DNA from: a virus
IMG/VR virus record: IMGVR_UViG_2788500098_000001
Strand: one strand, 5' to 3'
Length of the DNA stretch: 64,000 bases
In this document: positions 29,136 to 64,000 of the stretch, in pieces
Numbering within the stretch: the stretch's first letter is position 1
Layout of the letters: every line of letters begins with the position of its first letter
Position numbers and translations under genes: made by a program
The notes under the pieces: model-generated
What the model was told of the DNA's origin: nothing
Database searches by the model: none
What the model saw: only the letters and a program-made list of their open reading frames with translations

Positions 29136-30215
29136 TTACAATCGCATTGGCATTATAATTTGTACTGGATCGTCTTCAGAACCTTTTATTTGAATCGGCT
29201 GTTTCGGGTTTTGTACTCGTATACAGACTGTATCGTTTTCGAGTGCGCTGAGCGCATCAATAAGATAAGAAGCGTTTAATCGCAAGGGTTGTGAACCACC
29301 CTCTACGCTAGCAGCCAACTGCTCATCGCCTTGCAAATCAGCGCCATTCAACGCTATCGTAAGACCATCACGTGTTGAAGACAACTTCACAGGCGTATCC
29401 TTTTGGAACATATCAATCGTTTTTAATCGTTTAACAGCCCCTAACAATGAACTACGATCTGTTTGTATAATCCATGAAGCATCGGTCGTGGGATGAAGCT
29501 TCGACTCAAGATTCGGATATGTGCCTGCTATCAATGGGAACACATCAACAGTACGTTCGCCAACAATTTCGATAACTCGATCGGTAACACCGAATTGTAC
29601 AGCTTGAACACTGACCCTTTTCAACCATTCGGCACTGACCAGAACATCTCCCTGCCACTCACAGTTGTTAATACTATTTTGTGCCATCCTATATCGGTCT
29701 GTGGTTTGAACAGTCAATTTTGATCCATCACCCAACAAATGAATTGCTGTTAACACGGGGGGCGTATCTTTTCCGGGATGACCAGCTGCGTGCACAACAC
29801 CTGAGACCAGTCGAGATAAACTCCCAGCTGTTAACGGATACAGTCGCTCAGGCAGTACAGGCCATGGCATTATATCTGCTTCTCTCATTACAGCCATACT
29901 GAGTTTAGTGTTGCCGGCACTTAACAACAGTTGATGTTCTTTTGCGTTAAAATCCACATCTACTTCACCAGCAGAAAGCACACTAGTAAGAGCCGATAAC
30001 CATAATCCATTAACCACGATTTGACCAGCTGAGAGAACATCACCATTTACCATGGTCTTACTCCACCCCGAAACACCACCAGTGGTCAACACCAATTGAT
30101 CAGGAGGATTAAAGTCCATGCGCAGCATTTTGTTTGCTGATTGTTTTCTATCAATTACCCCTGTTACATGTTGTGTAGCGTTCGCTAACTCTTCAGCATC
30201 AACTAATGCTCTCAT
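29136..30215 (-). CDS. dnaN: DNA polymerase III beta sliding clamp
   Basis: TTDRYRMAQ, LIAGTYPN, LNASYLIDAL and C-terminal IIMPMRL; AAAGGA SD before MRALVD. Confidence 0.9.
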   Translation of the reverse strand: MRALVDAEELANATQHVTGVIDRKQSANKMLRMDFNPPDQLVLTTGGVSGWSKTMVNGDVLSAGQIVVNGLWLSALTSVLSAGEVDVDFNAKEHQLLLSAGNTKLSMAVMREADIMPWPVLPERLYPLTAGSLSRLVSGVVHAAGHPGKDTPPVLTAIHLLGDGSKLTVQTTDRYRMAQNSINNCEWQGDVLVSAEWLKRVSVQAVQFGVTDRVIEIVGERTVDVFPLIAGTYPNLESKLHPTTDASWIIQTDRSSLLGAVKRLKTIDMFQKDTPVKLSSTRDGLTIALNGADLQGDEQLAASVEGGSQPLRLNASYLIDALSALENDTVCIRVQNPKQPIQIKGSEDDPVQIIMPMRL

Positions 30216-30251
30216 ATTTGTTCCTTTCATATTTTGATGAAAAAATTTCTT

Positions 30252-30268
30252 ACTATATATATGCGTCA
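30252..30268 (-). promoter_or_regulatory. Class A motif
   Basis: TGACGCATATATATAGT upstream of dnaN. Confidence 0.85.
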
Positions 30269-30272
30269 TATG

Positions 30273-30278
30273 GCATAG
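30273..30278 (+). promoter_or_regulatory. Class B motif (leaderless)
   Basis: GCATAG-9 nt-ATG 30288. Confidence 0.7.
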
Positions 30279-30287
30279 ATGCGTAGC

Positions 30288-32615
30288 ATGTGGTTTCAAC
30301 TTGTACCTATTCCTAAAAGTCAGCCCGATGATCAGCAAGCTTTCCTCAAACGAGCAAGACGTGCTGCTGAAGCACTTGGATTGACCACTAGACCAACCTT
30401 CGATACTTTTATGGACGCGGCTCACCATAGTGATGGGATGATAGTGGTTGCTTCCGGCTCCTACCGGTGGATACATGTTTGTGACAGTATGGATGAACAA
30501 GCGGTTCAAGCAGTGGCAAAAGCATGCGATAGTACAGCTATCGCGTGTGATAAACCCGTCATTCTTAATGAACATCTCGTGTGGGCTCATGCGGTTGTGC
30601 CGGCTTCTGCTACCTTGTCTCGAACCGCGCGCGATGAACTCGATACTGGAGAAGAAGTACGCGTAGATCCACCTGCTAACGGGCTTGTATACTTACAAGT
30701 TCGACGGCAAGGGTTCATAGAAACTCGCCGCGCTAAAAACTGGTTGGCAGACGAGTTTAATATGAGTCCTGACACGTCTAAACTCCAAGAAGCAGGAGTA
30801 GGAGTCAGCCGTATTGGTGCCGCGATGCCAAACCGTAAAGATGCGTTAACCCTAGCGGCATCTACGGCTAGCGCACTAGATTTAGGCTTAACTGGTTCTG
30901 GTGCTCATGTAAGCCGACCAGGGGTAGGACTGTTAGTTTCGAGCGCACTTATCTTGGCTTGCTCCCTGCTTTGTATCATGGTTTGCGGCATCATTTGGCC
31001 AGCTTTTTTCAGTATCACCTGTTTTGGTATAGCTCTCATACGGCGTATGCGCATGCATGCTGATGCGGATTTGTATCAACGACCCCGTCACCGTTGGCTA
31101 CCATGGCCACGCATGCGCCGATCGCAAGCAGCTGATCTTAAAACACGTTCTGCTGGCGATGACCAGAACTGGCAAAGTAAAAAACGTGTTCATGCTTATG
31201 CGTATCAGCGCAGCACGTTGCCTATTCCAAGTGGAACCTTATTAGCGTTATGTCGTCCAGCTGACCGAGAGGGCAGTCAAACACGACTCAGTTTTTGCCC
31301 CCAGAATCTCATCCATGCCGACGGACCACGAGTTGGTGTCGATGCAGTTCAGCGGGATGTGCGTATACCATCTACCGCAGTATGGGCAGGTATCAGCTTG
31401 TTTGGTGGTCCCGGTGGCGGAAAATCGAATACGATGCACGGTCTTGAACGATGGGCAGTGGAACATTGTACCAGCTCAGATGCAACCATCATATTCGAAT
31501 CCAAAGGCTCAGATTCTGTACCTATTTTAAACCAATTACTTCAATCTCCACGATTAGTGGACTTAAATAATCCAGCAACTCCCATGATCTCATTACTAGG
31601 AGAAGGAACAACTGCACGCCAAGCAGACAGGTTTGCCTCACACATGAAAACCGCTTTAGGCGAACAACAAATAGGCCCAGCATCACGCCTTTACCTCCGC
31701 GACGCCGTATGGCTAGCATTAGAAACACTTAACAAACCATCATTACAACAAGCCTGCACAGCAGCAGGACTCATCCAAGCCCCCAACACATGGATAGACT
31801 ATGCGATGATCATCCTCGCAGGACAAGGAGCACAACAAGCAAGGGCACTCGCACATGCCACTACTATGGCAATTCCCCATACCCCTGCCATTCTCCAAGC
31901 ACTAGAACGCTTACACGGTGCAGTCAATCCACAAACAGGACGGCCTTCAATATCAGACAGTGAGCTTATTAAACGATTAAATGCCCCTATGAACAAAATG
32001 AGTTTACTCGCTCAAACACCAGCCATTAACAGTACACACAGAAAACTAGTCACATGGCGTCAAATCATACAACAACATACAACGCTCATTATCAACATGG
32101 GCGGCAGCGTACAACCCATAAACGATAGTCATGAATCACTACCTGATGACGTAAAAACATTGATAGGAGCCCTCCTCTTATCTGGCCTAAGAGAGGAAAC
32201 AGAACGCACATGCGCCGGCTGGCAAGATGATAACAAACACGTACGAATCTTCATAGACGAACTCACCGAAGTACTTGGCCCACATTCCAATAGAACCTCA
32301 AACACTGAAGTATTAGAATGGCTACGCAGTAAAGGACGCGCCTTTGGCGTTGAACTTACCACCGGAACACAATACCCAGAACAAGTAGACCAACAAACTC
32401 TCAACCTACTCCTCGGATTCGATACGGTTATCTGTTTCACTCTTAGAGACATGCAATCAGCAACTACTTTGGCTCAAACTCTGAGCATAGAACCTGAACA
32501 AATCCTACAGCTAGCAAAACATAATGCTCTTATCAAAACTGTCTCTAATCAAGCAGTCACCCTCCCAACAATGGCATTAGCCATACCACATTTTGATGCA
32601 GGAGCACCAGCATGA
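30288..32615 (+). CDS. VirD4/TraD-like coupling ATPase
   Basis: TM pair, GGPGGGKS Walker A, IFIDEL Walker B, GRAFGV.L..GTQ. Confidence 0.7.
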   Translation: MWFQLVPIPKSQPDDQQAFLKRARRAAEALGLTTRPTFDTFMDAAHHSDGMIVVASGSYRWIHVCDSMDEQAVQAVAKACDSTAIACDKPVILNEHLVWAHAVVPASATLSRTARDELDTGEEVRVDPPANGLVYLQVRRQGFIETRRAKNWLADEFNMSPDTSKLQEAGVGVSRIGAAMPNRKDALTLAASTASALDLGLTGSGAHVSRPGVGLLVSSALILACSLLCIMVCGIIWPAFFSITCFGIALIRRMRMHADADLYQRPRHRWLPWPRMRRSQAADLKTRSAGDDQNWQSKKRVHAYAYQRSTLPIPSGTLLALCRPADREGSQTRLSFCPQNLIHADGPRVGVDAVQRDVRIPSTAVWAGISLFGGPGGGKSNTMHGLERWAVEHCTSSDATIIFESKGSDSVPILNQLLQSPRLVDLNNPATPMISLLGEGTTARQADRFASHMKTALGEQQIGPASRLYLRDAVWLALETLNKPSLQQACTAAGLIQAPNTWIDYAMIILAGQGAQQARALAHATTMAIPHTPAILQALERLHGAVNPQTGRPSISDSELIKRLNAPMNKMSLLAQTPAINSTHRKLVTWRQIIQQHTTLIINMGGSVQPINDSHESLPDDVKTLIGALLLSGLREETERTCAGWQDDNKHVRIFIDELTEVLGPHSNRTSNTEVLEWLRSKGRAFGVELTTGTQYPEQVDQQTLNLLLGFDTVICFTLRDMQSATTLAQTLSIEPEQILQLAKHNALIKTVSNQAVTLPTMALAIPHFDAGAPA

Positions 32616-36258: not shown

Positions 36259-37521
36259 CTACAGGTCAGTATATACAGCTTTAATCCAGGAACGCATTTC
36301 TGTCAGTCTTTTAGGTGTAACCGTTTCCATTTTCCCAGTTTGCTTATTATATGTTCGCCGCGTCCAAATAGTGTGTGCTAAACGTTTGTCTCCTGGTTCT
36401 AGTTCAAGAAAACATTTAGCTGCTTCAGGAGTTAATGCCCTATGGTAGGCCACCATCCGTGCCACATTGCCTTGTCCGGAACCTGAAGAGTATGCTTCCA
36501 GCTTGGTTATACCACGGTCTTTACTAGTGAACGCACGTGAGTTTACCAGGCTCTTAGCATACTTAGTATTACCAGTACGATTTCGGACTGTACCGTTACC
36601 ATAACATAATTCCCAGAATGCTTGCGCTTGTATGTGCGGCTCATTATCTAACTCATGTAATGCTTCCGTGATTTGCCGTGTAGTTTTCCTGTCGGGAACA
36701 CCATTTGTTGGCTGGTATAGCATACGAAGATACGAGCGTGCAGCCGCACCCTTGGATTCACGTTTCGCTAAGGTTTTAACAACAGGTATTTTCTGTCCTG
36801 TTGAATCTCGTAGGAACCGTCCCTTTTGATCACGCTTGTATACTTTCCTGCGTTCTGTGATTACATGTCCGGCAGCATCACGAGCATCTTTCGTATAGTT
36901 GATAAACGCCCACGCACTATCAGCAGTATTCGGATAGCCTGCTCGAATAACATTTTGTGCAGCTTCAGCATCCTCATAAAATAAATCTTTGAGAATTGTA
37001 ACCGCCTGATCCTGGTTTTTACGGTGTCGTAAACTATTAACTATATGAGAAGCAGGAATATAACGTCGATTAGGACTTGATTCAATTGCGTTGCGCCGCT
37101 GATATGGTGAAGCTAACCTGAAGGCTTGTTTCACTATTCTTTGCCGATACGCTTCCGATGGTATGCCAGTCAAATCAGCATTCAACGTGTCACGTACTGC
37201 CATTCTCACGTTTTTGTCAGCACGTAAAACCTGAGCATTTAATCTAGGATAACCCTGTGCTTCAACATACAAGATTTGCCCATTTTCATCTACCAATTCG
37301 AGCCCAGTGCCTCGAATAATCACAGACTGAGTGCCTTTAAGAAGCTCCAAAGTCTCTTGTGCAGAAAGTTGAACCTCTGGTTCCTGAATTCGTGCACGCG
37401 TATTTACTTCATCCAATACTGGTAAATCAGCACAATGCTTTCCTACCATCACATCGAATTGGCCACCAACACCACCGGGACTGCCAGCTGGCTTACGAGC
37501 AGGTTCACGCATCTTACTCAT
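36259..37521 (-). CDS. Basic hypothetical protein with N-terminal GGQ(Y/F) tag
   Basis: AAAGGAG SD; ARKPAGSPGGVGGQFD..DLPVL; internal RDQKGRF. Confidence 0.8.
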   Translation of the reverse strand: MSKMREPARKPAGSPGGVGGQFDVMVGKHCADLPVLDEVNTRARIQEPEVQLSAQETLELLKGTQSVIIRGTGLELVDENGQILYVEAQGYPRLNAQVLRADKNVRMAVRDTLNADLTGIPSEAYRQRIVKQAFRLASPYQRRNAIESSPNRRYIPASHIVNSLRHRKNQDQAVTILKDLFYEDAEAAQNVIRAGYPNTADSAWAFINYTKDARDAAGHVITERRKVYKRDQKGRFLRDSTGQKIPVVKTLAKRESKGAAARSYLRMLYQPTNGVPDRKTTRQITEALHELDNEPHIQAQAFWELCYGNGTVRNRTGNTKYAKSLVNSRAFTSKDRGITKLEAYSSGSGQGNVARMVAYHRALTPEAAKCFLELEPGDKRLAHTIWTRRTYNKQTGKMETVTPKRLTEMRSWIKAVYTDL

Positions 37522-37563
37522 CCTCATATACTCCTTTAGACAAGAACATATTTACAGGAGTAT

Positions 37564-37584: not shown

Positions 37585-40500
37585 ATGGGTAGAACGTACA
37601 AACGTCAAGCAAACCGTCGGACAAAACAACAAACACCAGTAGTCGTGTCATACCACACGCCTATTAGAATAATTACCATCATAGTGTCCATATTGCTCAT
37701 CATGTTCGGACTACCAGGCATGCTACTAAACAGCATTGGTTTCTGGTTCGCATCTGTCATGGCACGAAAACCAGAATTAACCGGATTTGATGCATGGCGT
37801 CAACCTGAACCATCAAGTCCACGCGAACAACGTGCTCTACACAGTTACCGAAAAGCTAAAGCATGGTTCGCTCGATGGCAAGATTTTGACCCACGTTCAC
37901 CAATATTCATGTGGACAGTAGGCGTGGGTGCCACATTCGCTAGCCTCCAATACCTGTTTGCATGGTATACCAACACAACTAACACACTATGGATGACCTG
38001 GTGGTCATTAACTGGAACAATGATTGGCACAAGCTTATTTCTCGCAGCATGGATAGGTGCCAAACATACGTCTATGACACGAACACACTGTACTTTCAGA
38101 CCAGTAAAGTGGACCAAAAGCCGATCAACTCAATGCTTAGGTTTTGCACTCGCTGGCATACTAGCCAGTTTACTGGTATGGGCATTAACCGGCTGCTGGC
38201 CTTTCCTCGTCGGATTACCATGCTTGTTAACTCCTATACCAATAACACATAGTTGGAAAGCTGCTCGCAGTCAATTTACTGCTGATATAGAGTCAGCAAC
38301 CATGTTAGATCGTTGGATACAACAAGTGAAGAAACCATCGTTCCGCTCGCGTCCCATGATGGTAACACAAACACAAACAAGCCCCTCAGGTGAGCGAATG
38401 TTTCTCATATCAGTCTCCCATCCCAATGAGTGGGTTAACCAGGCAACAAGAGATGATTTACGCCCATATGCCAACAGTGAAAACCTGGATTTAGCTTTCG
38501 TTTTCCATGGTGACGATAAGCTTCATGCGCTTGCGAACATTGCTCCCTTACAAACCCCAGATCCGATAGCACTAACAAGCAATAAGGTGAGTTTAATGGT
38601 ACGCTGCAACATGGAAACAGCGCGCCTTGGATTCAATTACGCCACTTGGCCAGGCTCTTCAATATTACTACCCGTTGGTTATAGTGACAGCAAGGCAGCT
38701 GCTTTCGTATGGAAAATAAAAGGCCCACAACCTGATTGGATGCAAGTACAAAGCAGTTGGTTACGCGGCTCAACGGACGGCGAACTAGGGGATTGGGGTT
38801 CACTCATTGGATTACACATGATAGTGGATCCTAGTTACACTCATGGTTGGGTATATCGGGGAGAAATAGAAAACATCAGTTTTGATGATGATAAAGCTGC
38901 TCGCTACAGGTTCCAGCAGTTCAGCACCACTACTGATACAAAACATTATCTATCACTCATAAGCAACCATGAACGCGATCTTGACACCTGGGATAATGCG
39001 TTAAAAACAGTGAAACTACCACCGCCTGTAGCTATCCTTTATGACAATGCTGAACGCTTTGAAACACAAGATTGGGCTCTACAAGTTACTCCTATGGGTA
39101 TCAGTCAACAAGGTGGTTTCCAGGCGACGGATTATATGAGTATTGATTTACGTCCTGCCATGGGAGACAGTACAATAGCAGACGTACTTGGAATGCCAAA
39201 CGCGACTGTTCGAGACTCATGGTATACACGTTACTTTCGTTTTGTGCAATCAGTGCCAGCAGTTAATCCACGTATACCAACAGTATTGCGATCCGTAAGG
39301 GGATCTTCAGCCGCTCATGCTCTGTTAGCACAAGTAATAGCTTCTCGCGCGTTTGCATCTATTCTTAAACGACCTGCGCTCGTAGGTAAACCTGAACAAA
39401 TGTCCAACACTGACGAATGGACATTATGGAGAATACCTGTTGAACTCACTGGGGGAGTAACCCCAGCTGATGCAAGACGCGCACAGCCCAGACTCAAATC
39501 TATGATGGGTGCTGATATCGCGTTATGGCAATGGCTTGATGCCAGTCACGTTATTCTATGGGCAGGCAACCAATGTCCCACACAAACTAACCAATGGCGC
39601 TATCCACAGTGCGCAAAACAAGCAGTGAAACTATTACTTGATGATGCTTGGGCTCAAGCCGGTGCTACTACTAAAGATGGGCGCAGCATCACCACCATCT
39701 CATATGCTCCAGCTAAAGGAACACTCAAAAAAGCTGTGTTCACGATACCAGCGGGATTACCTCCCGATAAAGTTGAATCATGTGTAGACGGTTTCTGCTC
39801 AAACGCAGGATTCTCTTATTCTAAAACCCTTCCATCCGCGCAAGCAGGACAATCCATCATGCTTGTTAGCGAGCGCATGCCGTTACCGGAGTATGTTGAA
39901 GCCAATTGGAATACTATTACTGGTGAAAGCTTACAATTACCGTTTGGAGTGTTAGATGACGGTAGTACAGCTGTTTGGAATCCTCATGATACTCCTCATC
40001 TGCTTGCTTCCGGTACTACTGGTTCTGGTAAAAGTTCTGTGTCTCTCACCTTGGTTCAAGCGGCTTTACGGCAAGGTATACAAGTAGCAGTAACAGACCC
40101 AAATAAAGGAGCTAACGATTTTAGGCCTATCCGCGATAAACTGATAGCGTTTGAAGATACATTAGAAGGTTGTTGTGCGCTCACCTCATGGGCTGTTTCA
40201 CAGATGCGTTATCGCGTACAATTAATAACAGAACATGGTGGGGGAGACTATGATTCTCTGCCAGAAGCTATTAAGCCACCTAGATTGTTAATTCAAATAG
40301 ACGAGTTTAATTCGCTGCTAGTTAAAGATAAGTCTAAAACCGCCAACCCTTTGGGAGATCCGGAAATTGATAATCAAAATACGTTGACAGACTGGTCTAA
40401 TGGGATTCGTACCAAAATTGGTTTCAACGTATCAACTTTACTAACCCAAGCTCGTTCAGCAGGAATCATGCTCTTATTAGGCGCTCAACAATTAAATGCT

Positions 40501-40896
40501 GGAGATTTAGATCTGCTACCACAAGCATCTACAGCGAAAAGTATGTTAGGACGCATTTTCTTAGGTAATGGGAATACGGCTGGTAACGTGAGTCAAAACA
40601 ATGTTAGAGAAGCAAACCGTCTTTTACGTCAAAGCGCAAGAAATGGTGGTATGCCTAAGGGACGCGGCCTATATGAACGTATGGGCAGATCAGTAGATAT
40701 GGTGCAATGCTGGTATTCTGGGCAAGGAGAAGCGTTAGCTCACTCATGCAGCCAGCTGCCGGACGCGAAACCGGTTGATCTGAGCTCATATATGCCCGCT
40801 AAACCAGAATTAGTAGGAGTTGTTACACCTGCCGATAATGATCGCGTGCAAGTCAGTTTAACTTCCACTACTGATGATTGGATTCTAGATGATTAA
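37585..40896 (+). CDS. Membrane-anchored FtsK/SpoIIIE-family ATPase
   Basis: Several N-terminal TMs; TPHLLASGTTGSGKS, IQIDEF, ARSAGI.LLLGAQ. Confidence 0.9.
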   Translation: MGRTYKRQANRRTKQQTPVVVSYHTPIRIITIIVSILLIMFGLPGMLLNSIGFWFASVMARKPELTGFDAWRQPEPSSPREQRALHSYRKAKAWFARWQDFDPRSPIFMWTVGVGATFASLQYLFAWYTNTTNTLWMTWWSLTGTMIGTSLFLAAWIGAKHTSMTRTHCTFRPVKWTKSRSTQCLGFALAGILASLLVWALTGCWPFLVGLPCLLTPIPITHSWKAARSQFTADIESATMLDRWIQQVKKPSFRSRPMMVTQTQTSPSGERMFLISVSHPNEWVNQATRDDLRPYANSENLDLAFVFHGDDKLHALANIAPLQTPDPIALTSNKVSLMVRCNMETARLGFNYATWPGSSILLPVGYSDSKAAAFVWKIKGPQPDWMQVQSSWLRGSTDGELGDWGSLIGLHMIVDPSYTHGWVYRGEIENISFDDDKAARYRFQQFSTTTDTKHYLSLISNHERDLDTWDNALKTVKLPPPVAILYDNAERFETQDWALQVTPMGISQQGGFQATDYMSIDLRPAMGDSTIADVLGMPNATVRDSWYTRYFRFVQSVPAVNPRIPTVLRSVRGSSAAHALLAQVIASRAFASILKRPALVGKPEQMSNTDEWTLWRIPVELTGGVTPADARRAQPRLKSMMGADIALWQWLDASHVILWAGNQCPTQTNQWRYPQCAKQAVKLLLDDAWAQAGATTKDGRSITTISYAPAKGTLKKAVFTIPAGLPPDKVESCVDGFCSNAGFSYSKTLPSAQAGQSIMLVSERMPLPEYVEANWNTITGESLQLPFGVLDDGSTAVWNPHDTPHLLASGTTGSGKSSVSLTLVQAALRQGIQVAVTDPNKGANDFRPIRDKLIAFEDTLEGCCALTSWAVSQMRYRVQLITEHGGGDYDSLPEAIKPPRLLIQIDEFNSLLVKDKSKTANPLGDPEIDNQNTLTDWSNGIRTKIGFNVSTLLTQARSAGIMLLLGAQQLNAGDLDLLPQASTAKSMLGRIFLGNGNTAGNVSQNNVREANRLLRQSARNGGMPKGRGLYERMGRSVDMVQCWYSGQGEALAHSCSQLPDAKPVDLSSYMPAKPELVGVVTPADNDRVQVSLTSTTDDWILDD

Positions 40897-41157: not shown

Positions 41158-41201
41158 TTTGCATGCCCAACTATCGAAAGGTGAAACACTATCACTTTCA
41201 C

Positions 41202-41207
41202 GCATAG
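41202..41207 (+). promoter_or_regulatory. Class B motif (leaderless)
   Basis: GCATAG-8 nt-ATG 41216. Confidence 0.75.
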
Positions 41208-41215
41208 TTTCCAGC

Positions 41216-43771
41216 ATGACAGCTATAGAAACAGCAGGCACATTTGCTAGACATCAAGGACAAGGATTCGTACGTACCATCGACGGGTCCGCATGGCTCT
41301 ATTGGACACTACCTTCACAACCCAGCGTCAGAGACGCAGGATCATGGTCCGATAAACTCAAAGCTGCCCGCCCAATCCAAGTAATCCTCCCTGCACTAGC
41401 AGCATTAGCACCACGAGTTCCACTCATGGGACGTAAAGTCGCCAAAAGTTTCTACCGGCACATCCACATCCTAGCTATAGCCACACCACAACCATACAAA
41501 CCCAGCGACAATCTAGACACCGAAAGCCGAATACGACTACAACGAATATACGCAAACACCCCAGAACACGACCGCTTCACACTCGTCGGCGTTCGACTAA
41601 ACAGCGGCGGTGAAAAACACCAAGGATTTTGGAGCAAAGTAGCATCCTGGATCAACCAAGCCGAAACAGACGAAGACGGAACAGGCATACCAGACGAAGC
41701 CTTCAACACCGACCGAACACGTATCCAACACATATTCCAAGACGCAGGATGCAGACCACCAACTGAACACGAAATGCGCCGCGCACTAGCCTGGTGGCAA
41801 ACCAACCGAATGCCAGAAACCGTACCAATCATGGTAGAACACGAACACATGCACACCTTCCCCAACATCCAATCATGCCGACTAGGAGAAGACCTAAGAA
41901 ATACCCGCATCGACTGCACCACCTGGAGCAAACGAATACAAGGCTCATACCCAATGACCATCGTATCCTTAGGATCCCTACCATTCCAAGGCCAAGATGA
42001 ACGCAACGAACCAGACGCAGACTGGGCAGCCACACTACTCGCAAGCGCTCGCGGTTCTGGGCAGGGTGCTTTAGCATTATCTATTAGGGGTTTAGTTGAA
42101 CCCGGTGAAGCTAGTAGAGAGCAAATTGATAAAGATAAGCAGAATGTGCTTGATAAAACATTGAAGCAGCTAGAAGATAATCATAAAACTAATGTTAGTG
42201 TTGCTAATGATTTATCTGAAGTTGATGACATTTACCAAGTGAATGGTCGCCCGTGGCCAACATTGATTGATGCTCATGTGCATGTAGCTATTCCTGATGT
42301 GATAGATCAGCCTAATAAAGTCATGTATCCGGGAGAGGTTCGTTTAAATCCAGATCGGCAGGAAGCTGCGTTTCAAGATATGATGATAGGAAGTAGCATT
42401 TCATATAATCCTTCTCCTGTTTATTGGCCAACCCCGATTTTAGCGTTTGCTGGCCTGTCTGGAAGGTCTGTTGCAGGCGAGGATATGGGACGGGTGCGTA
42501 AAAAGGTTAAAGGTCGTTCGATACCTCTTCCAGGTGCTCTTCCTGGCGCTCTGCTAGGTTTTTCCGAGTCTGATCGCCTTCCTGTGTACTGTTCGCCGTT
42601 CGCATCTAGGTTTTTGCATTGTCCACCAGGGTTACTTGTGTTATCACGAACCGGTGGTGGTAAAACACGTGTTATGCTTCATTTAGCTTCTCAATGGTCA
42701 CTATTACGCAATCCTGATAATCCATCACAAGGTATTCCTGGAGTGTTTTTTGATCCGAAACCGAATTCTGATGATTTTGAACCATTCGTACATAGTCAAA
42801 ACGGTAATATTTACAGGCTTGACGATCCTAAATCTGAAGCGTTACTCGACCCGCTACGTTGCATGCCTGCCACCATGGGAGAAGAACGGGTACAAACAGC
42901 AGTGGAACTGTTGGGACAAATTCTAGGTGGCGAATACGGTGACAGACAGCTTGAACTCGCGTTAACCTCTATTATTGGGTATGGAATACGACATGGGGCA
43001 GACTGCACAGGTATAGCCGTACAACTAGCCTATGAAGCGTACGAAAATAAAGCGACAGATTACGAAACAATTAGTCCGAAAGTCGCTACCATTTATCCTG
43101 AGCTCAAACGTTTTGCTTTAAACCAGCCGATGTTTCGACTCATATACGGCACAAAACCCGGTGGAATGCAGTTAAGTATTTCTAATGGTTTGACACTCAT
43201 TTCTGCTGGCACTATGAACATTATTGGAGAGGGAACACAATCAGTTCCAAACGCAGTACAACGATGGGTAGTGCGTATGGCAGCTTTAGGTGGTGCCGCA
43301 TCCATTATCGGACGGAATGGATATATTGCCATGGATGAAGCTTGGTCACTACTCGGGGACCCGTATGGAGTTTCTGTAGCCAACCGCATGGGACGACTTG
43401 CCCGCGCTCAACATTACATGTTCATGATGGCATCCCAAAAGGTTGACGAATTCGCAGATGCAGGATTAGAAGATTTCGTCGGACGTTTCATTGTTCTCGG
43501 TATGGGGTCAAAAAATGAGTTAGCAGGGCGTAAATCTCAAGCTGAATCAGTGCTGATGCTTACCAACCAACAACATAATGATCGCATGAGAGAACGTATC
43601 ACTCATGATCAAGTTACAGATACAGATTCTAATACTCCTGATTGGGATAGCTTGTTTGCCTTGTTTGACCCAGACACTGGTCAACTCTTACGAGGCTCTA
43701 TCGGATACTATATAGGCGTTGACCGGTCAGCTATTCCTGTAGAAATTAACGTGTCTAACACTCTGGTATGA
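41216..43771 (+). CDS. VirB4/TcpF-like conjugation ATPase
   Basis: SRTGGGKT, FFDPKP, AMDEAWSLL, RLARAQ....MASQ. Confidence 0.82.
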   Translation: MTAIETAGTFARHQGQGFVRTIDGSAWLYWTLPSQPSVRDAGSWSDKLKAARPIQVILPALAALAPRVPLMGRKVAKSFYRHIHILAIATPQPYKPSDNLDTESRIRLQRIYANTPEHDRFTLVGVRLNSGGEKHQGFWSKVASWINQAETDEDGTGIPDEAFNTDRTRIQHIFQDAGCRPPTEHEMRRALAWWQTNRMPETVPIMVEHEHMHTFPNIQSCRLGEDLRNTRIDCTTWSKRIQGSYPMTIVSLGSLPFQGQDERNEPDADWAATLLASARGSGQGALALSIRGLVEPGEASREQIDKDKQNVLDKTLKQLEDNHKTNVSVANDLSEVDDIYQVNGRPWPTLIDAHVHVAIPDVIDQPNKVMYPGEVRLNPDRQEAAFQDMMIGSSISYNPSPVYWPTPILAFAGLSGRSVAGEDMGRVRKKVKGRSIPLPGALPGALLGFSESDRLPVYCSPFASRFLHCPPGLLVLSRTGGGKTRVMLHLASQWSLLRNPDNPSQGIPGVFFDPKPNSDDFEPFVHSQNGNIYRLDDPKSEALLDPLRCMPATMGEERVQTAVELLGQILGGEYGDRQLELALTSIIGYGIRHGADCTGIAVQLAYEAYENKATDYETISPKVATIYPELKRFALNQPMFRLIYGTKPGGMQLSISNGLTLISAGTMNIIGEGTQSVPNAVQRWVVRMAALGGAASIIGRNGYIAMDEAWSLLGDPYGVSVANRMGRLARAQHYMFMMASQKVDEFADAGLEDFVGRFIVLGMGSKNELAGRKSQAESVLMLTNQQHNDRMRERITHDQVTDTDSNTPDWDSLFALFDPDTGQLLRGSIGYYIGVDRSAIPVEINVSNTLV

Positions 43772-43786: not shown

Positions 43787-44041
43787 ATGGCAAATATTAC
43801 GACATTAACAACAGCACAAGCTGTCAGTTTAGAGCACATCATCCAAATTATGCGTTCATATGGTTTTGACCATGAAGGACAGGGAATACGTTCTTCGAAC
43901 GTTCATATCGAAAATCATGAGTCATATATTGTTTTTTGGCTGGAAAGTGAACAATCAATAGCCAATGGAACATTAAATAGGAACGGCAAAGGCTTGTGGT
44001 GGCTTCGAGAAGAAGCACAACAAACTATTCACGTCCAGTAA
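43787..44041 (+). CDS. Hypothetical protein
   Basis: Leaderless after class A motif. Confidence 0.7.
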   Translation: MANITTLTTAQAVSLEHIIQIMRSYGFDHEGQGIRSSNVHIENHESYIVFWLESEQSIANGTLNRNGKGLWWLREEAQQTIHVQ

Positions 44042-44177
44042 TAATATGGTACAAGCCTATAATGATACCGAGGATGTAACCAATAACATTGATTATAAAA
44101 TTGAATGCCCACTTGAAAACAACCAAAAAAATCAATCCAATAATGGCACCGATAATGAACGCTATAGTGAAAACCAT
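44025..44177 (-). CDS. Small hydrophobic protein
   Basis: AAAGGAAGG SD after class A motif; MVFTIAFIIG.. Confidence 0.65.
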   Translation of the reverse strand: MVFTIAFIIGAIIGLIFLVVFKWAFNFIINVIGYILGIIIGLYHIITGRE

Positions 44178-44195
44178 AATGAACACCTTCCTTTC

Positions 44196-44213
44196 ACTAT
44201 TTATTATGCGTCC
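44196..44213 (-). promoter_or_regulatory. Class A motif
   Basis: GGACGCATAATAAATAGT. Confidence 0.8.
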
Positions 44214-45259
44214 GAATTTTGCATCATCCATTCATTATGCCACTGTTCAACCATTTTCGGATTCAAATGAAGGCTTTTTGCAACTTTCTTCCTATCAAGA
44301 TCCTTCGCGAATACTTCATTAAACAAAGCCTGTAAATCCAGTTTTGCTTCAGCACTAGGTTCAACACCGATAGACGGTATATCCTCTTGTACCTCTACTT
44401 TTTGTTCAACACCAGCAGATAAGAGATCATTAACTCTCTCTCCACGAAGAACTTGCTGCCCCCTTTTAAACATGACTTCAAAATCTTTACGACCGTTATA
44501 TACTCTTCCATCAGGAAGCCGTTTTACACTGTCAGGACGCTTTGTATGAGGATTAGCGTTACGCCCATCTGATAGTCTCATACCTCCACCAAAAGAAACT
44601 CCTCGAACAATTTTATCGTTGATAAATTCCATCATATTCTCATCCCATAGTTGATCACGTATATGCGATGGAGGCAAACCTCGTGTATGATGATCAATTT
44701 GCCATTGTTGAACACGTTGTTGGTATCGTAAACCAACTCTCATTTTATGCTCAGTCAGATTCCATGGTGGTAGTCGTAACACTCGTTGTATTTTCACTGG
44801 TGCTTTAACTGCGCTTGCAACGAGCTGAGGACTATAACAACGAGTCGGATCTATCGCTATCGCCTGACGTAACCCAGCTAATCTTTCAAATAAATATCGT
44901 TCAGCTTCGCGTTGAGCATCAGAAACATTCAGCAAAAACTTGTTTAATTCACGAACCAATGGGCCAGGTTGATCATTACTCCCTAATGCTTGTTCAACTA
45001 GCGCCATTTCTTGCTCTGGAGTACAAACCGGCTGATCGCGATAATCTGCGCTCAACCCAGGTTGAGTAGCCCGCAAATTAGATGCTAGCCACCGCCATTG
45101 TTTGTCATGACTGTCTAACTCGTTATACAAGCTGATTCTATTGCGTTTTGACTTCGGATTGTTTAAAACAGGCAAATCGCTTATATCATGCGACTTATAG
45201 TCATACTGTCCACCAGTGCCACCAGGGCTATGTTTTGGTTTTCGTGATGTGTTGCTCAT
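44204..45259 (-). CDS. GGQ(Y/F)-tagged protein with sigma-70-like region 2 and C-terminal HTH
   Basis: RKPKHSPGGTGGQYD tag; GLRQAIAIDPTRCYS..RVLRLP resembles GL..A...FDP.RGY..R.IRIP; C-terminal LDRKKVAKSLHLNPKMVEQW HTH. Confidence 0.5.
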   Translation of the reverse strand: MSNTSRKPKHSPGGTGGQYDYKSHDISDLPVLNNPKSKRNRISLYNELDSHDKQWRWLASNLRATQPGLSADYRDQPVCTPEQEMALVEQALGSNDQPGPLVRELNKFLLNVSDAQREAERYLFERLAGLRQAIAIDPTRCYSPQLVASAVKAPVKIQRVLRLPPWNLTEHKMRVGLRYQQRVQQWQIDHHTRGLPPSHIRDQLWDENMMEFINDKIVRGVSFGGGMRLSDGRNANPHTKRPDSVKRLPDGRVYNGRKDFEVMFKRGQQVLRGERVNDLLSAGVEQKVEVQEDIPSIGVEPSAEAKLDLQALFNEVFAKDLDRKKVAKSLHLNPKMVEQWHNEWMMQNSDA

Positions 45260-45268
45260 GACAAGCAA

Positions 45269-45274
45269 CTATGC
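45269..45274 (-). promoter_or_regulatory. Class B motif (leaderless)
   Basis: GCATAG-9 nt-ATG 45259. Confidence 0.75.
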
Positions 45275-45276
45275 GC

Positions 45277-46389
45277 TCATTCATCTTGAATGATGATCGC
45301 TCGTATAGTCGCTACTAGTTGATTCGCCTGATCCCGATACTTTTGATAACCTTTCGATCCTACTTGTGCTCCTCGAGGGCGAGTTTTCAGGTTCAACCGT
45401 TGGCATTCCTGATCCCAGACACTTTGCGATTCCACTCCGGGATATTGAAAAAGCTTTTGCTCGTATGCAAGTCCTGTACGAGCGTTTCTGAGAGTCATTC
45501 CTTCGCGGTTGAGAATGGCGTCAGCACGTAGATTCGGATGTTTTGCTACCAGATAGTCAGCAACCTGATGATCTAGAACTACAAGTTCTATGCTTTGTCT
45601 TAGATTTGGTTTAGGCCGTACTGATGCAAACAATGTTTTCAACTCTTGAGGATCGACCCCTGGTTGTATGATCTCTCCGTCAATTATACGTTTCAACATA
45701 GCTTGAGCTTGTTTGTATGTTACATCATGCTCATATAGCCATTGCATATTTGGTTTAAATTCTGTTAAACATGCTACTTCCGGGTTAGCGTTTTTATATG
45801 AACCTGTATATCTATCCATAATTTCTCTCTCTTTTCTATTTAAATATTTTAATGATTTACCAGAAAGCGCAGCCTTGGTTTCTTTCCACGCTTTTAGACC
45901 TCCGCAAGTACTATGTATGCCACTTTCATAGATTCCATTATGAAGGGGGAGGTATCGTGTTGTTTTTCTTTTTCCTTCTTTATAATCTATCCGTTGCTTA
46001 TTATTAATTGTTTTTACTGCTTCGTCCCAAATCTCTGCTTCCGTATCATCTGTGACCACGTGTCCGAGACTTCTTATTTCAGCTTTATGCCGCTCAAAAG
46101 CATAGCCAGCACGTAAAAGGGTAATCGGCACATGGAATTCACGCTGGAAAATATGTTCCAATTTAATATTTCGAGCTATGTGAACAGTATATTTTAAAGT
46201 GAGTGTACGTTCAGGATGAAGTCTCATCACGTCGCATATTGCATTAATGATAGCTTCATGAACAAGGTCTTCACTACGAGAGGGATTACAGATAAACGTG
46301 TTGAGCTTATATGCTGCACTATACTCATAGGAAGGATCTGAGTACTTTTGTATTACTCTTTCGAATTCGGCAGAAGTAATTGTTTTCAT
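45277..46389 (-). CDS. Divergent sigma-70-family protein (regions 2-3, possible region 4)
   Basis: SEDLVHEAI..A, HIARN, REFHVP...LGHVVTDDTEAE (like R.IRIP..LGR.PT.EE.AE), LKYLNRKEREIM. Confidence 0.6.
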   Translation of the reverse strand: MKTITSAEFERVIQKYSDPSYEYSAAYKLNTFICNPSRSEDLVHEAIINAICDVMRLHPERTLTLKYTVHIARNIKLEHIFQREFHVPITLLRAGYAFERHKAEIRSLGHVVTDDTEAEIWDEAVKTINNKQRIDYKEGKRKTTRYLPLHNGIYESGIHSTCGGLKAWKETKAALSGKSLKYLNRKEREIMDRYTGSYKNANPEVACLTEFKPNMQWLYEHDVTYKQAQAMLKRIIDGEIIQPGVDPQELKTLFASVRPKPNLRQSIELVVLDHQVADYLVAKHPNLRADAILNREGMTLRNARTGLAYEQKLFQYPGVESQSVWDQECQRLNLKTRPRGAQVGSKGYQKYRDQANQLVATIRAIIIQDE

Positions 46390-46408
46390 ACTTCTTATAT
46401 GCGTCCAA
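46390..46408 (-). promoter_or_regulatory. Class A motif (leaderless)
   Basis: TTGGACGCATATAAGAAGT-ATG 46389. Confidence 0.85.
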
Positions 46409-62742: not shown

Positions 62743-64000
62743 CTACAGCATAATGTCTTTGCTAATCACGTCAGCAACTTCGTTAGTACGTTGTGGCCAC
62801 AGATCAGCATACGTGTCAAGAGTCTCCGTAGCTGAAGCATGCCCCAAAACTGCCTGTAATGTTTTCACATCTGCACCAGCTTTAATAGCCAATGACGCGT
62901 ATGTATGACGCAAGGAATGAACAACCAGACCATCTATGACATCCATACCTGTTTTCTGCAACGCTGGAACCCAAACACGCATCCTCCAATTATTTGTTGT
63001 TTGCCGTCCGCCACGAGGACCACGAAACAGGTAATCCGAATCAGCATGACCAGACAATAACAATCGCAAACAGGGGAGAAGCGGCTCAGGAATAGGTACA
63101 ATCCTCGTCCTATTCCCCTTCGGCAAGGTTTCCACTAAACGCGATTGTGCGTCAATAGACTGCGTCCTTAAAATACGTATACTTCGTGATTTCAAATCAA
63201 CATCAGCACACCGAAGCGCGAGCGCTTCACCTATTCGTATACCCGTGTATGCAAGCACATACACTAAGCTAGCGTTCGGCGCGTCCATTGCATCTGCCAG
63301 TGTTTTTACTTCTGTTGGAGTTAGATATATACGTTGTATTGCTTGTTTAACACGAGGTATCTTGACCGGGTTAACTGGATTATCGTTAATCCAGTGCAAC
63401 CGTACTGCTGTATCAAGTATTGATTTCAAAACAATTTTTACAATGGACCGTATAGAAGCTGCTGCTAACGGGCGAGCCTGGCCTGTTTTCCCAGCATACG
63501 GGGCAGTACCTTGGCCTAATTGAGCTACCCATTGTTGAATACCATCGACTGTGATTTGTCCTACTGGTACCTGTCCCCATCTAGGTAGTATCCATGTTCT
63601 TACTTCTCTGCGGTACCTGGCTTCAGTAGAACCTTTAATGGTCCCAGGTAAGCCTTCTAACCAGATGTCAGCAACCTTGCTCAATGGATTCTTTTTGTCC
63701 TTGTTGTTCACATATTTACCGGACAGAATAGTGTCTTCGCATTCTACTTGAAATAATTCTGCTTCAGAACGGGACGCGAAATTCTTTTTTTGACGTTTAC
63801 CGTCCGACCACCAGTACACGCTCCACCGTAAACCCTTCCCATAATCAGTTGTCCTGAACTCTGTAGGTACAGCGGCTTTCATAGGGTCAGAAGCCCTAGT
63901 TAAAGCGCGTTTTACCTGGCTTGACGGTGCGACCTTTACCTTATTACCGTCGGGTAATGTTGTATAAACACTTTTTAACCAACGGTCGTATATCCATGCT
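62743..64000 (-). CDS. int: Tyrosine recombinase/integrase (5' end beyond the window)
   Basis: TGIRIGEAL (R), HSLRHT (HxxR), LGHAS, TLDTYA (Y); frame stays open to 64000 (..AWIYDRWLK..DPMKA). Confidence 0.95.
   Translation of the reverse strand, partial: AWIYDRWLKSVYTTLPDGNKVKVAPSSQVKRALTRASDPMKAAVPTEFRTTDYGKGLRWSVYWWSDGKRQKKNFASRSEAELFQVECEDTILSGKYVNNKDKKNPLSKVADIWLEGLPGTIKGSTEARYRREVRTWILPRWGQVPVGQITVDGIQQWVAQLGQGTAPYAGKTGQARPLAAASIRSIVKIVLKSILDTAVRLHWINDNPVNPVKIPRVKQAIQRIYLTPTEVKTLADAMDAPNASLVYVLAYTGIRIGEALALRCADVDLKSRSIRILRTQSIDAQSRLVETLPKGNRTRIVPIPEPLLPCLRLLLSGHADSDYLFRGPRGGRQTTNNWRMRVWVPALQKTGMDVIDGLVVHSLRHTYASLAIKAGADVKTLQAVLGHASATETLDTYADLWPQRTNEVADVISKDIML

What the first reader, a model, noticed from the sequence alone, without database searches (positions are those of the whole stretch)
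44204..45274. A third sigma-like protein is a class B gene carrying the shared N-terminal tag: possible transferred jump-start sigma
Seen: this protein starts with the RKPxxSPGxxGGQYD tag. It has GLRQAIAIDPTRCYS..RVLRLP (like GL..A...FDP.RGY..R.IRIP of region 2.3-2.4) and a C-terminal HTH (LDRKKVAKSLHLNPKMVEQW). It lies just downstream of the class A sigma-like gene but has its own class B start. Inference (speculative): it is made late with the transfer machine and delivered to the recipient to fire class A promoters. This would solve the problem that both other sigma-like genes are themselves under class A control.
Basis: inference. Interest (0 to 1): 0.8.

Follow-up and report, generated by a model that had tools for sequence, protein, structure and literature searches.

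The report
Address-tagged sigma-like protein of a conjugative element
A conjugative element of an insect-gut bifidobacterium encodes a very diverged sigma-factor-like protein that starts with the same short address tag as the element's anti-CRISPR protein, so it may be handed to recipient cells to start the element's genes, though this is untested.

Summary
Window 44207-45259 (-) encodes a 351-aa orphan protein with no Pfam, NCBIfam or PHROG match. It has three parts.

1. An N-terminal tag, RKPxxSPGxxGGQ[YF]D..DLPxL. Four window ORFs carry it, six in the genome, always at residues 5-9. One of them is an AcrIC5 anti-CRISPR.
2. A helical core.
3. A C-terminal three-helix HTH.

The core is homologous to the untagged upstream gene at 45277-46389 (hhalign 98%, E=1.7e-14). 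That paralog links to sigma-70 region 2 (hhalign against ECF sigmas E=5e-5; language-model score 0.95). Foldseek's top hits for the AF2 model (pLDDT 86.6) are mostly sigma factors, but none is significant. I put sigma ancestry at about 70% and true sigma function at about 35%.

The gene has its own class B start, GCGCATAG 10 nt before the ATG. All six orthologs examined keep such a start, and the element's VirB4-like and FtsK-like transfer genes have the same kind.

Delivery into recipients is untested. The tagged AcrIC5 makes it plausible. I give the full "jump-start sigma" reading about 12%.

The parts
44207..45259 (-). CDS of the tagged sigma-like protein (P0001, 351 aa; stop codon at 44204-44206)
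   Evidence: About 30 family representatives in 1.84 billion proteins. AF2 model pLDDT 86.6.
45155..45259 (-). N-terminal tag, residues 1-35: MSNTSRKPKHSPGGTGGQYD...DLPVL
   Evidence: Shared by 4 window ORFs and 6 in the genome. Present in 26 of 33 family members and 0 of 9 members of the paralog family. pLDDT 45-76, no regular secondary structure.
44765..45037 (-). Sigma-2-like helical domain, residues 75-165. Includes the region 2.1-2.3-like stretch around DPTRCYS.
   Evidence: hhalign of A4 against A6, E=1.7e-14. Merged core against ECF sigmas, E=6e-4, in the same register as the paralog's E=5e-5 match.
44408..44764 (-). Sigma-3-like three-helix domain, residues 166-284. It holds a family-specific insertion (SDGxxAxP...NGRxDFE) and the family's most conserved residues (RVGxRY, RDRxWDE).
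44207..44356 (-). C-terminal three-helix HTH, residues 302-351
45269..45276 (-). Class B promoter-like motif GCGCATAG, 10 nt upstream of the ATG. It overlaps the stop codon of the upstream gene.
   Evidence: Conserved 8-10 nt before the ATG of orthologs in six other genomes.
45277..46389 (-). Untagged paralog (P0002, 370 aa), the better-preserved sigma-like gene. Leaderless.
   Evidence: Pfam Sigma70_r2 E=0.088 and TIGR02937 E=0.019. Language-model features 0.95 to SigF/Sigma70_r2 clusters. hhalign against ECF sigmas 67%, E=5e-5.
46396..46405 (-). Class A motif GACGCATATA, 6 nt (AGAAGT) before the P0002 ATG at 46389 (8 nt counted from the CGCATA core, the measure used)
   Evidence: GGACGCATA is conserved before P0002 orthologs in four other elements.
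12242..12607 (-). Tagged anti-CRISPR: tag plus AcrIC5 domain (121 aa)
   Evidence: Pfam PF22147 AcrIC5, E=6.2e-26, 90.7 bits, residues 57-112.
17446..18123 (-). Tagged orphan protein (225 aa), directly upstream of the FtsK-like ATPase gene
36259..37527 (-). Tagged orphan protein (422 aa), divergent from the FtsK/TcpA-like coupling-type ATPase gene at 37585-40896
44025..44231 (-). Small two-TM ORF (68 aa) that overlaps the 3' end of the target by 28 nt. Possibly co-transcribed.
   Evidence: A 51-aa hydrophobic ORF follows one close ortholog (L011).

Best explanation
The gene encodes a very diverged member of the sigma-70 superfamily. It is the address-tagged paralog of the untagged sigma-like gene just upstream.

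Architecture: a disordered N-terminal tag (1-35), a family-specific helical segment (36-74), a sigma-2-like domain (75-165), a sigma-3-like domain with an insertion (166-284), a linker, and a three-helix HTH (302-351).

Expression: it is transcribed from its own leaderless class B start (GCGCATAG, 10 nt, ATG). The element's VirB4-like, FtsK-like and ParA genes have the same kind of start, so it is probably made together with the transfer machine. Read-through from the class A promoter of the upstream gene may add to this.

Inferred function: a DNA- and probably RNA-polymerase-associated transcription factor for the element's own CGCATA-type promoters. The tag puts it in a small cohort of element proteins, which includes an AcrIC5 anti-CRISPR, that one partner recognises. 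I think that partner is most likely the transfer apparatus.

Shown: the tag, the paralogy, the promoter motifs and the HTH fold. Inferred: sigma ancestry (about 70%), RNA polymerase binding (about 35%), and the tag as a transfer address (about 40%).
For: Paralogy:
- hhalign of the P0001 family (A4) against the P0002 family (A6) gives 98.3%, E=1.7e-14. P0001 75-240 aligns with P0002 1-156 (E=4e-17).
- The G466 ortholog of P0002 matches the A4 profile at E=4e-22.

Sigma link:
- P0002 family against a 22-sequence actinobacterial sigma alignment: 67%, E=5e-5 over regions 2.1-2.3. The positive control (ECF against group 1) gives 97.6%, E=4e-12. Reversed controls give E 0.2-0.4.
- P0002 language-model score of 0.95 to SigF/Sigma70_r2 clusters.
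- Foldseek with the pLDDT 86.6 model puts sigma factors first in the PDB and makes them 20 of the top 30 in Swiss-Prot, colinear over residues 65-350. Three of the top 11 AFDB cluster hits are sigma entries.

Promoter code:
- CGCATA occurs 53 times against 31 +/- 6 expected.
- 15 of the 53 lie 4-10 nt before the start of an ORF of 60 aa or more, against a mean of 1.9 for 180 permuted hexamers.
- GACGCATATA occurs 13 times in the element and 4 times in the other 1.6 Mb.
- The motifs are conserved before orthologs in elements of 66% GC.

Tag:
-.
- Tagged AcrIC5.
- A tagged LPD28-like protein in G466 at E=6e-5.
- In 236 genomes of the host family, the tag and the P0001 family occur in the same 7 genomes.
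Against: - No Sigma70 HMM reaches significance for P0001 or any of its 33 relatives.
- VIA-align over 48,161 chains did not rank sigma-2 or sigma-3 domains above generic hits.
- P0001 lacks the region 2.2 and 2.3/2.4 motifs that its paralog keeps.
- The direct A4-to-sigma comparison reaches only E=0.02.
- Nothing here shows RNA polymerase binding, promoter recognition or protein transfer.
- The receptor of the tag is unknown.
Confidence: 0.5

Rival explanations
1. The tagged sigma is made late in the donor, passes through the mating channel by means of its N-terminal tag, binds the recipient's RNA polymerase core and fires the class A (GACGCATATA) promoters. This starts the element before any of its genes has been expressed.
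For: - It has a class B start like the transfer genes.
- Its tag is shared with an AcrIC5 anti-CRISPR and other orphan proteins, a cohort that would make sense as early-acting cargo.
- The class A core GACGCATA is conserved even in elements of 66% GC, where the following bases do not form a TAnnnT -10 box. This hints at a dedicated factor.
- The tagged and untagged paralogs always differ in the tag: 26 of 33 against 0 of 9.
Against: - No evidence of translocation.
- N-terminal signals are not known for conjugative type IV systems (my own knowledge).
- P0001 is the paralog that has lost the sigma -10 recognition motifs.
- In this low-GC element the class A motif contains TATAAG/TATAGT, which the host's housekeeping sigma might read.
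- Read-through from class A cannot be excluded.
Confidence: 0.12
2. A sigma-derived regulator that acts only in the donor, as an alternative late sigma, an anti-sigma-like decoy or an HTH repressor/activator of CGCATA promoters. On this reading the tag serves something other than export, such as recruitment to the transfer complex at the membrane, timed proteolysis, or binding to a common chaperone.
For: - Paralogy to the sigma-like P0002 and the HTH.
- Two related promoter classes and at least two sigma-like paralogs fit a donor-side cascade.
- An earlier check in this scan on a similar actinobacterial tag argued against a strict free-N-terminus export signal (e1-2628465; not verified here).
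Against: - It does not explain why an anti-CRISPR, whose target is the recipient's immunity, carries the same tag.
- In the three elements examined the tag is always N-terminal, 25 of 25.
Confidence: 0.25
3. Not sigma-related. The protein would be a novel helical protein with a generic HTH, for example an anti-defence or DNA-binding establishment effector, and the sigma resemblance would reflect a common all-helical architecture.
For: - All direct sigma signals for P0001 are sub-threshold.
- The conservation pattern, with hot spots RVGxRY, RDRxWDE, SDG and NGRxDFE, is unlike that of sigma factors.
Against: Independent weak signals all point to one family, in a consistent register:
- Foldseek in three libraries.
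- Language-model features.
- HMM and profile matches through the paralog.

Reversed-sequence controls score far worse.
Confidence: 0.13

Closest known systems
Sigma-70 family, group 3/4 (SigB/SigF/FliA-type and ECF sigmas; Pfam Sigma70_r2, r3, r4; TIGR02937)
   Same: - Colinear order of helical sigma-2-like, sigma-3-like and C-terminal HTH parts.
- Region 2.1-2.3-like sequence, seen through the paralog.
- Encoded next to element-specific promoters.
   Different: - No significant HMM match.
- Region 2.2 and 2.3/2.4 motifs are lost.
- The HTH has three helices rather than the four of sigma-4.
- A large insertion sits in the sigma-3-like domain, which is also the most conserved part.
- It carries an N-terminal tag that no sigma is known to have.
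Sigma-like regulators of Gram-positive conjugative elements and phages (Tn916 Orf7; phage SigF-like late sigmas). Recalled from my own knowledge.
   Same: A small, diverged sigma-like gene inside a mobile element, tied to expression of transfer or late genes.
   Different: Those proteins are recognisable by Sigma70 HMMs. None is known to carry an address tag or to be transferred.
Proteins delivered with the DNA: polyvalent proteins and the ArdC-N 'header' domain (Iyer et al. 2017, PMC5512222); phage N4 virion RNA polymerase and T4 Alt, both cited there
   Same: The idea of supplying anti-defence and transcription functions as protein at the moment of entry. One tagged protein of a related element resembles LPD28.
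   Different: Here the cargo domains are separate small proteins, each with the same short disordered peptide. They are not domains strung in one giant polypeptide behind a folded header.
Type IV secretion translocation signals (C-terminal Arg-rich tails of VirB/D4 substrates) and phage T4 capsid-targeting sequences. Recalled from my own knowledge.
   Same: A short shared terminal peptide on otherwise unrelated proteins of one element.
   Different: N-terminal and Gly-rich, with an invariant GGQ[YF]D core. No receptor or transfer has been shown. The host is Gram-positive.

Membership tests
Sigma-70 family | Match to Sigma70_r2 / TIGR02937 HMMs above the curated cut-off | tested here: not met
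   P0001 has no hit. None of the 33 family members hits at E<=0.01. The paralog P0002 reaches only 13.1 bits, E=0.088, against a cut-off of 24.
Sigma-70 family | Profile-level homology of the core to sigma region 2 | tested here: inconclusive
   A4 against ECF sigmas, E=0.02. Merged core, E=6e-4. Paralog family, E=5e-5 (67%). Positive control, E=4e-12. Reversed controls, 0.2-0.4.
Sigma-70 family | Colinear sigma-2 / sigma-3 / sigma-4 fold | tested here: inconclusive
Sigma-70 family | Conserved region 2.2 (core binding) and region 2.3/2.4 (-10 melting and recognition) residues | tested here: not met
   In the hhalign register P0001 reads AQREAERYLFERL...YSPQLVASAVK. P0002 keeps EDLVHEA...HIARN at the same place.
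Sigma-70 family | Binds RNA polymerase core and directs promoter-specific initiation | not testable with these tools
A biochemical test is needed.
Conjugative translocation or address signal | The same short terminal peptide on unrelated proteins of one element, conserved in related elements | tested here: met
   Four ORFs in the window and six in the genome. Eleven in G466 and eight in G459, carrying a variant tag. All are N-terminal.
Conjugative translocation or address signal | Tag-dependent recognition by the coupling protein and transfer into recipients | not testable with these tools
   No receptor has been identified. A mating assay is needed.
Polyvalent-protein-associated domains (LPD) | Tagged cargo carries domains of the polyvalent-protein repertoire | tested here: inconclusive
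   One tagged G466 protein hits LPD28 at E=6e-5, 23 bits, below the cut-off of 27. P0001 itself has no such hit.

The most novel reading that the evidence does not exclude
A conjugative element ships a sigma-like transcription factor as protein, marked by an N-terminal address tag, into the recipient together with a tagged anti-CRISPR. There it reprograms the recipient's RNA polymerase to read the element's private CGCATA-type leaderless promoters. This would be the conjugation counterpart of phage N4's injected RNA polymerase.
Probability: 0.12. Interest if true: 0.9.

Novelty: new variant of a known kind. Interest (0 to 1): 0.6.

Why it matters
How a conjugative element expresses its first genes in a naive recipient is known only for a few Gram-negative plasmids, which use single-strand promoters and transferred PsiB or primase. 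For Gram-positive elements neither a protein translocation signal nor transferred regulators have been defined.

This element family offers a compact, testable system with four components:
- a private promoter code in two classes;
- two paralogous sigma-like proteins that differ in one address tag;
- the same tag on a known anti-CRISPR;
- presence in Bifidobacteriaceae of insect guts and, as a variant, in Bifidobacterium.

If the tag proves to be an export label, it would identify a set of early-acting effectors, most of them orphans, and give a handle for delivering proteins by conjugation. If it does not, the system is still a clear case of a mobile element with its own sigma and promoter system.

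Tried and rejected
- Pfam, NCBIfam and PHROG scans of the target found nothing.
- An HMM search of PDB sequences with the family profile found only a chance hit, CspZ at E=0.21.
- A word-index homolog search with the 33-sequence profile was swamped by candidates.
- A scan of genome contigs with conserved peptides found no relative. A sample of 400 genomes of the phylum had none.
- A 5421-aa protein with 13 'tag' matches turned out to be a eukaryote-type WxxW/mucin repeat, so a chance likeness.
- hhalign against a group-1 sigma alignment gave nothing. A genuine ECF sigma as a single sequence failed the same test, so that test was uninformative. I replaced it with a 22-sequence ECF-type alignment and controls.
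- The ESM Atlas shape search gave only TM 0.2-0.3 noise. BFVD gave no significant hit.
- No att repeats were found around the G466 and G459 elements.
- No RNA holder is listed among public runs, so expression could not be examined.
- Ten further tagged proteins from other samples had no Pfam domain.
- The consensus scan found no sigma-70-type promoter or terminator between the two sigma-like genes.

Full report
**What is there**

The finding's interval holds one gene on the minus strand. The ORF listing reports 44204-45268 from a TTG. All close relatives begin MSNxSRKP, so the start is the ATG at 45259, which gives 351 residues (P0001). It follows the stop of a 370-aa gene (P0002, 45277-46389) by 17 nt. 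A 68-aa two-TM ORF overlaps its 3' end by 28 nt.

The surroundings are a Gram-positive conjugative element. It has:
- a membrane-anchored FtsK/TcpA-like ATPase (37585-40896);
- a VirB4-like AAA_10 ATPase (41159-43771);
- a second FtsK-like ATPase (15352-17292);
- a class E sortase, ParA, a DnaN-like clamp and a tyrosine integrase at 62743-63882.

The genome is 1.74 Mb. Its family holds 236 species genomes, dominated by one genus of 151. An earlier scan note on a look-alike element names that genus Bifidobacterium. Insect-gut metagenomes hold the DNA.

**The tag is real**

RKPxxSPGxxGGQ[YF]D followed by DLPxL opens four window ORFs, with starts at 45259, 12607, 37527 and 18123. Two more stand elsewhere in the genome, at the start of contig C10 and the start of C8. 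These are probably further parts of the same element.
- Between the target and the other copies the tag codons differ at synonymous positions, so selection acts on the peptide.
- Related elements in two complete genomes of the big genus (G466 and G459, 66% GC) carry 11 and 8 ORFs with a variant tag, M[VT][MV]DRNNRSH[RK]PKG[LT]PxGxAGT[FY][DE]...D[VI]xPP.
- In all 25 cases the motif begins 5-9 residues after the initiator.
- Tag-only matches to the family profile also hit many unrelated small proteins from metagenomes.
- In 236 genomes of the host's family, the tag and the P0001 family occur in the same seven genomes.
- A 13-fold 'tag' repeat in a 5421-aa protein is an unrelated WxxW repeat.

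One window protein with the tag is a recognisable anti-defence protein. ORF 12245-12607 is the tag plus Pfam AcrIC5 (E=6.2e-26, 90.7 bits). AcrIC5 orthologs in Actinobacteria and their activity against an actinobacterial type I-C system are published (PMC7913775). A tagged 152-aa protein of G466 resembles LPD28, a domain of the polyvalent proteins proposed to enter recipients with the DNA (E=6e-5, below the cut-off; PMC5512222). Most other tagged bodies are orphans.

**The body: family and fold**

P0001 has no Pfam, NCBIfam or PHROG match. An exhaustive profile search of 1.84 billion representatives finds about 30 relatives of similar length. Of the 33 aligned, 26 start with one or another version of the tag.

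With this alignment AlphaFold2 gives a confident model (pLDDT 86.6):
- a loosely modelled tag (1-35);
- helices from 38 to 281, with a conserved loop insertion at 220-255;
- a low-confidence linker;
- a three-helix bundle at 302-351.

For the core no search gives a significant hit, yet the top of the lists is largely the same family:
- SigB, SigA, sigma-S and sigma-28 in the PDB (E 0.4-2).
- Sigma entries among AFDB clusters.
- 20 of the top 30 Swiss-Prot hits, which are RpoS, SigB, SigF, SigG and HrdD, colinear over residues about 65-350.

**The paralog gives the better link**

The family profile matches a second, untagged protein in G466, G459 and G438 (E=4e-22 to 2e-12). These are the orthologs of the window's P0002. 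Profile-to-profile, the P0001 family (A4) and the P0002 family (A6, nine sequences) align at 98.3% probability, E=1.7e-14, with P0001 75-240 on P0002 1-156.

P0002 is the less diverged of the two:
- Pfam Sigma70_r2 E=0.088 and TIGR02937 E=0.019 on residues 12-124.
- Language-model features of 0.95 to SigF/Sigma70_r2 clusters. Shuffled proteins reach that level about once in a hundred.
- hhalign against 22 actinobacterial ECF-type sigmas that I collected gives 67%, E=5e-5 on regions 2.1-2.3.

In the same test a real ECF set finds group-1 sigmas at E=4e-12, and reversed alignments give 0.2-0.4. P0001's own family reaches only E=0.02. The merged core reaches 6e-4, in the same register.

I therefore rate sigma ancestry at about 70%. 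Against a working sigma:
- P0001 has lost the DLxQE and IARN-type motifs that P0002 keeps.
- The family's invariant residues (RVGxRY, RDRxWDE, SDG, NGRxDFE) sit in the sigma-3-like domain.

**Promoters**

- CGCATA occurs 53 times in the window against 31 +/- 6 in shuffles.
- 15 of the 53 lie 4-10 nt before the ATG or GTG of an ORF of 60 aa or more. The mean for 180 permuted hexamers is 1.9, and this hexamer is the maximum.
- Class A is GACGCATATA. It has nine exact copies in the window, including those before P0002, the 32640 gene, 41138, 43787 and the phage-like operons.
- Genome-wide the decamer occurs 13 times in the element's contig ends and 4 times in the remaining 1.6 Mb.
- Class B is nCGCATAG followed by about 9 nt and the ATG. 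It stands before the VirB4-like gene (start then at 41216), the FtsK-like gene (17229), ParA (34659), four further genes at 18186, 21420, 25466 and 27660, three of which (18186, 21420, 27660) have counterparts in the related G466/G459 elements, and the target: TGAGCGCATAGTTGCTTGTCATG.
- P0001 orthologs in six other genomes all have GCGCATAG or CGCATAG 8-10 nt before the ATG. P0002 orthologs have GGACGCATA.

So the target has its own class B start and belongs, by promoter type, with the transfer genes. The consensus scan finds no terminator between it and the class A-driven P0002, so read-through is also possible. In the 66% GC relatives the conserved core is not followed by a TAnnnT -10 box. 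This suggests a dedicated factor but does not prove one. The position of the conserved CGCA, just upstream of the TA, is where sigma region 3.0 reads extended -10 elements. That would fit the conserved sigma-3-like domain, but it is my speculation.

**How it most likely works**

- Shown: a tagged and an untagged paralog; two related promoter classes; a tag cohort that includes an anti-CRISPR.
- Inferred: the two paralogs are the element's own sigma-type factors for CGCATA promoters. The tagged one is made with the transfer machine. The tag hands its bearers to one partner.
- The most economical partner is the mating apparatus, because an anti-CRISPR is most useful if it arrives with the DNA. 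I put that at about 40%.
- The whole chain, in which the protein is transferred, binds recipient RNA polymerase and fires class A promoters, I put at about 12%.
- A donor-only regulator with a tag that serves another purpose (25%) and a protein unrelated to sigma (13%) remain open.

**Novelty**

I found no paper that describes this family, the tag or a transferred sigma. The nearest published idea is the ArdC-N 'header' domain and the polyvalent proteins. This scan has met the same kind of tag before on a Bifidobacterium element (e1-2947753) and similar tags on actinobacterial megaplasmids. New here are the sigma-like identity of one tagged body, its untagged paralog, the tagged AcrIC5 and the conserved promoter code.

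Noticed in passing
window 12242-12607 (-): A 121-aa ORF made of the N-terminal tag plus an AcrIC5 anti-CRISPR domain (Pfam PF22147, E=6.2e-26).
   Followed up: partly
window, 15 sites (e.g. 17229, 18186, 21420, 25466, 27660, 34659, 41216, 43787, 46389): CGCATA lies 4-10 nt before start codons and marks an element-wide set of probably leaderless genes. It implies shorter starts than the longest ORFs for the VirB4-like gene (41216 rather than 41159) and the FtsK-like gene (17229 rather than 17292).
   Followed up: partly
window 44025-44231 (-): A 68-aa ORF with two hydrophobic helices overlaps the target's 3' end by 28 nt. A 51-aa hydrophobic ORF follows one close ortholog (L011). This is the position of an anti-sigma gene in ECF systems, but I did not test that.
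   Followed up: partly
G000 C10:1-18227 and C8:1-25000 (outside the window): Further tagged ORFs (C10:175, C8:633) and class A motifs (C10:323, C8:485, C8:12513) stand at two contig ends. The element is larger than the window and is probably split by an assembly break at a repeated tag-coding segment.
   Followed up: partly
L030-L033 (G466) and L034-L036 (G459): In these 66% GC relatives the P0001 and P0002 orthologs lie about 48 and 34 kb apart, at opposite ends of the block shared with the window and in the same orientation. They would become neighbours, in the window's order, if the element circularised. No att repeats were found.
   Followed up: partly
L016 / L036 (G459:C1:1399389-1400450): The P0001 ortholog of G459 sits in a 680-709-aa open frame. 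The tag is preceded by about 358 in-frame residues without a stop, which means either a run-on frame in GC-rich DNA or a fusion.
   Followed up: no
window 29136-30590 (-): An element-encoded 484-aa protein has DNA polymerase III beta-clamp domains in its C-terminal half and an unknown N-terminal half.
   Followed up: no
It shows no relation to the P0001 or P0002 families.
   Followed up: partly
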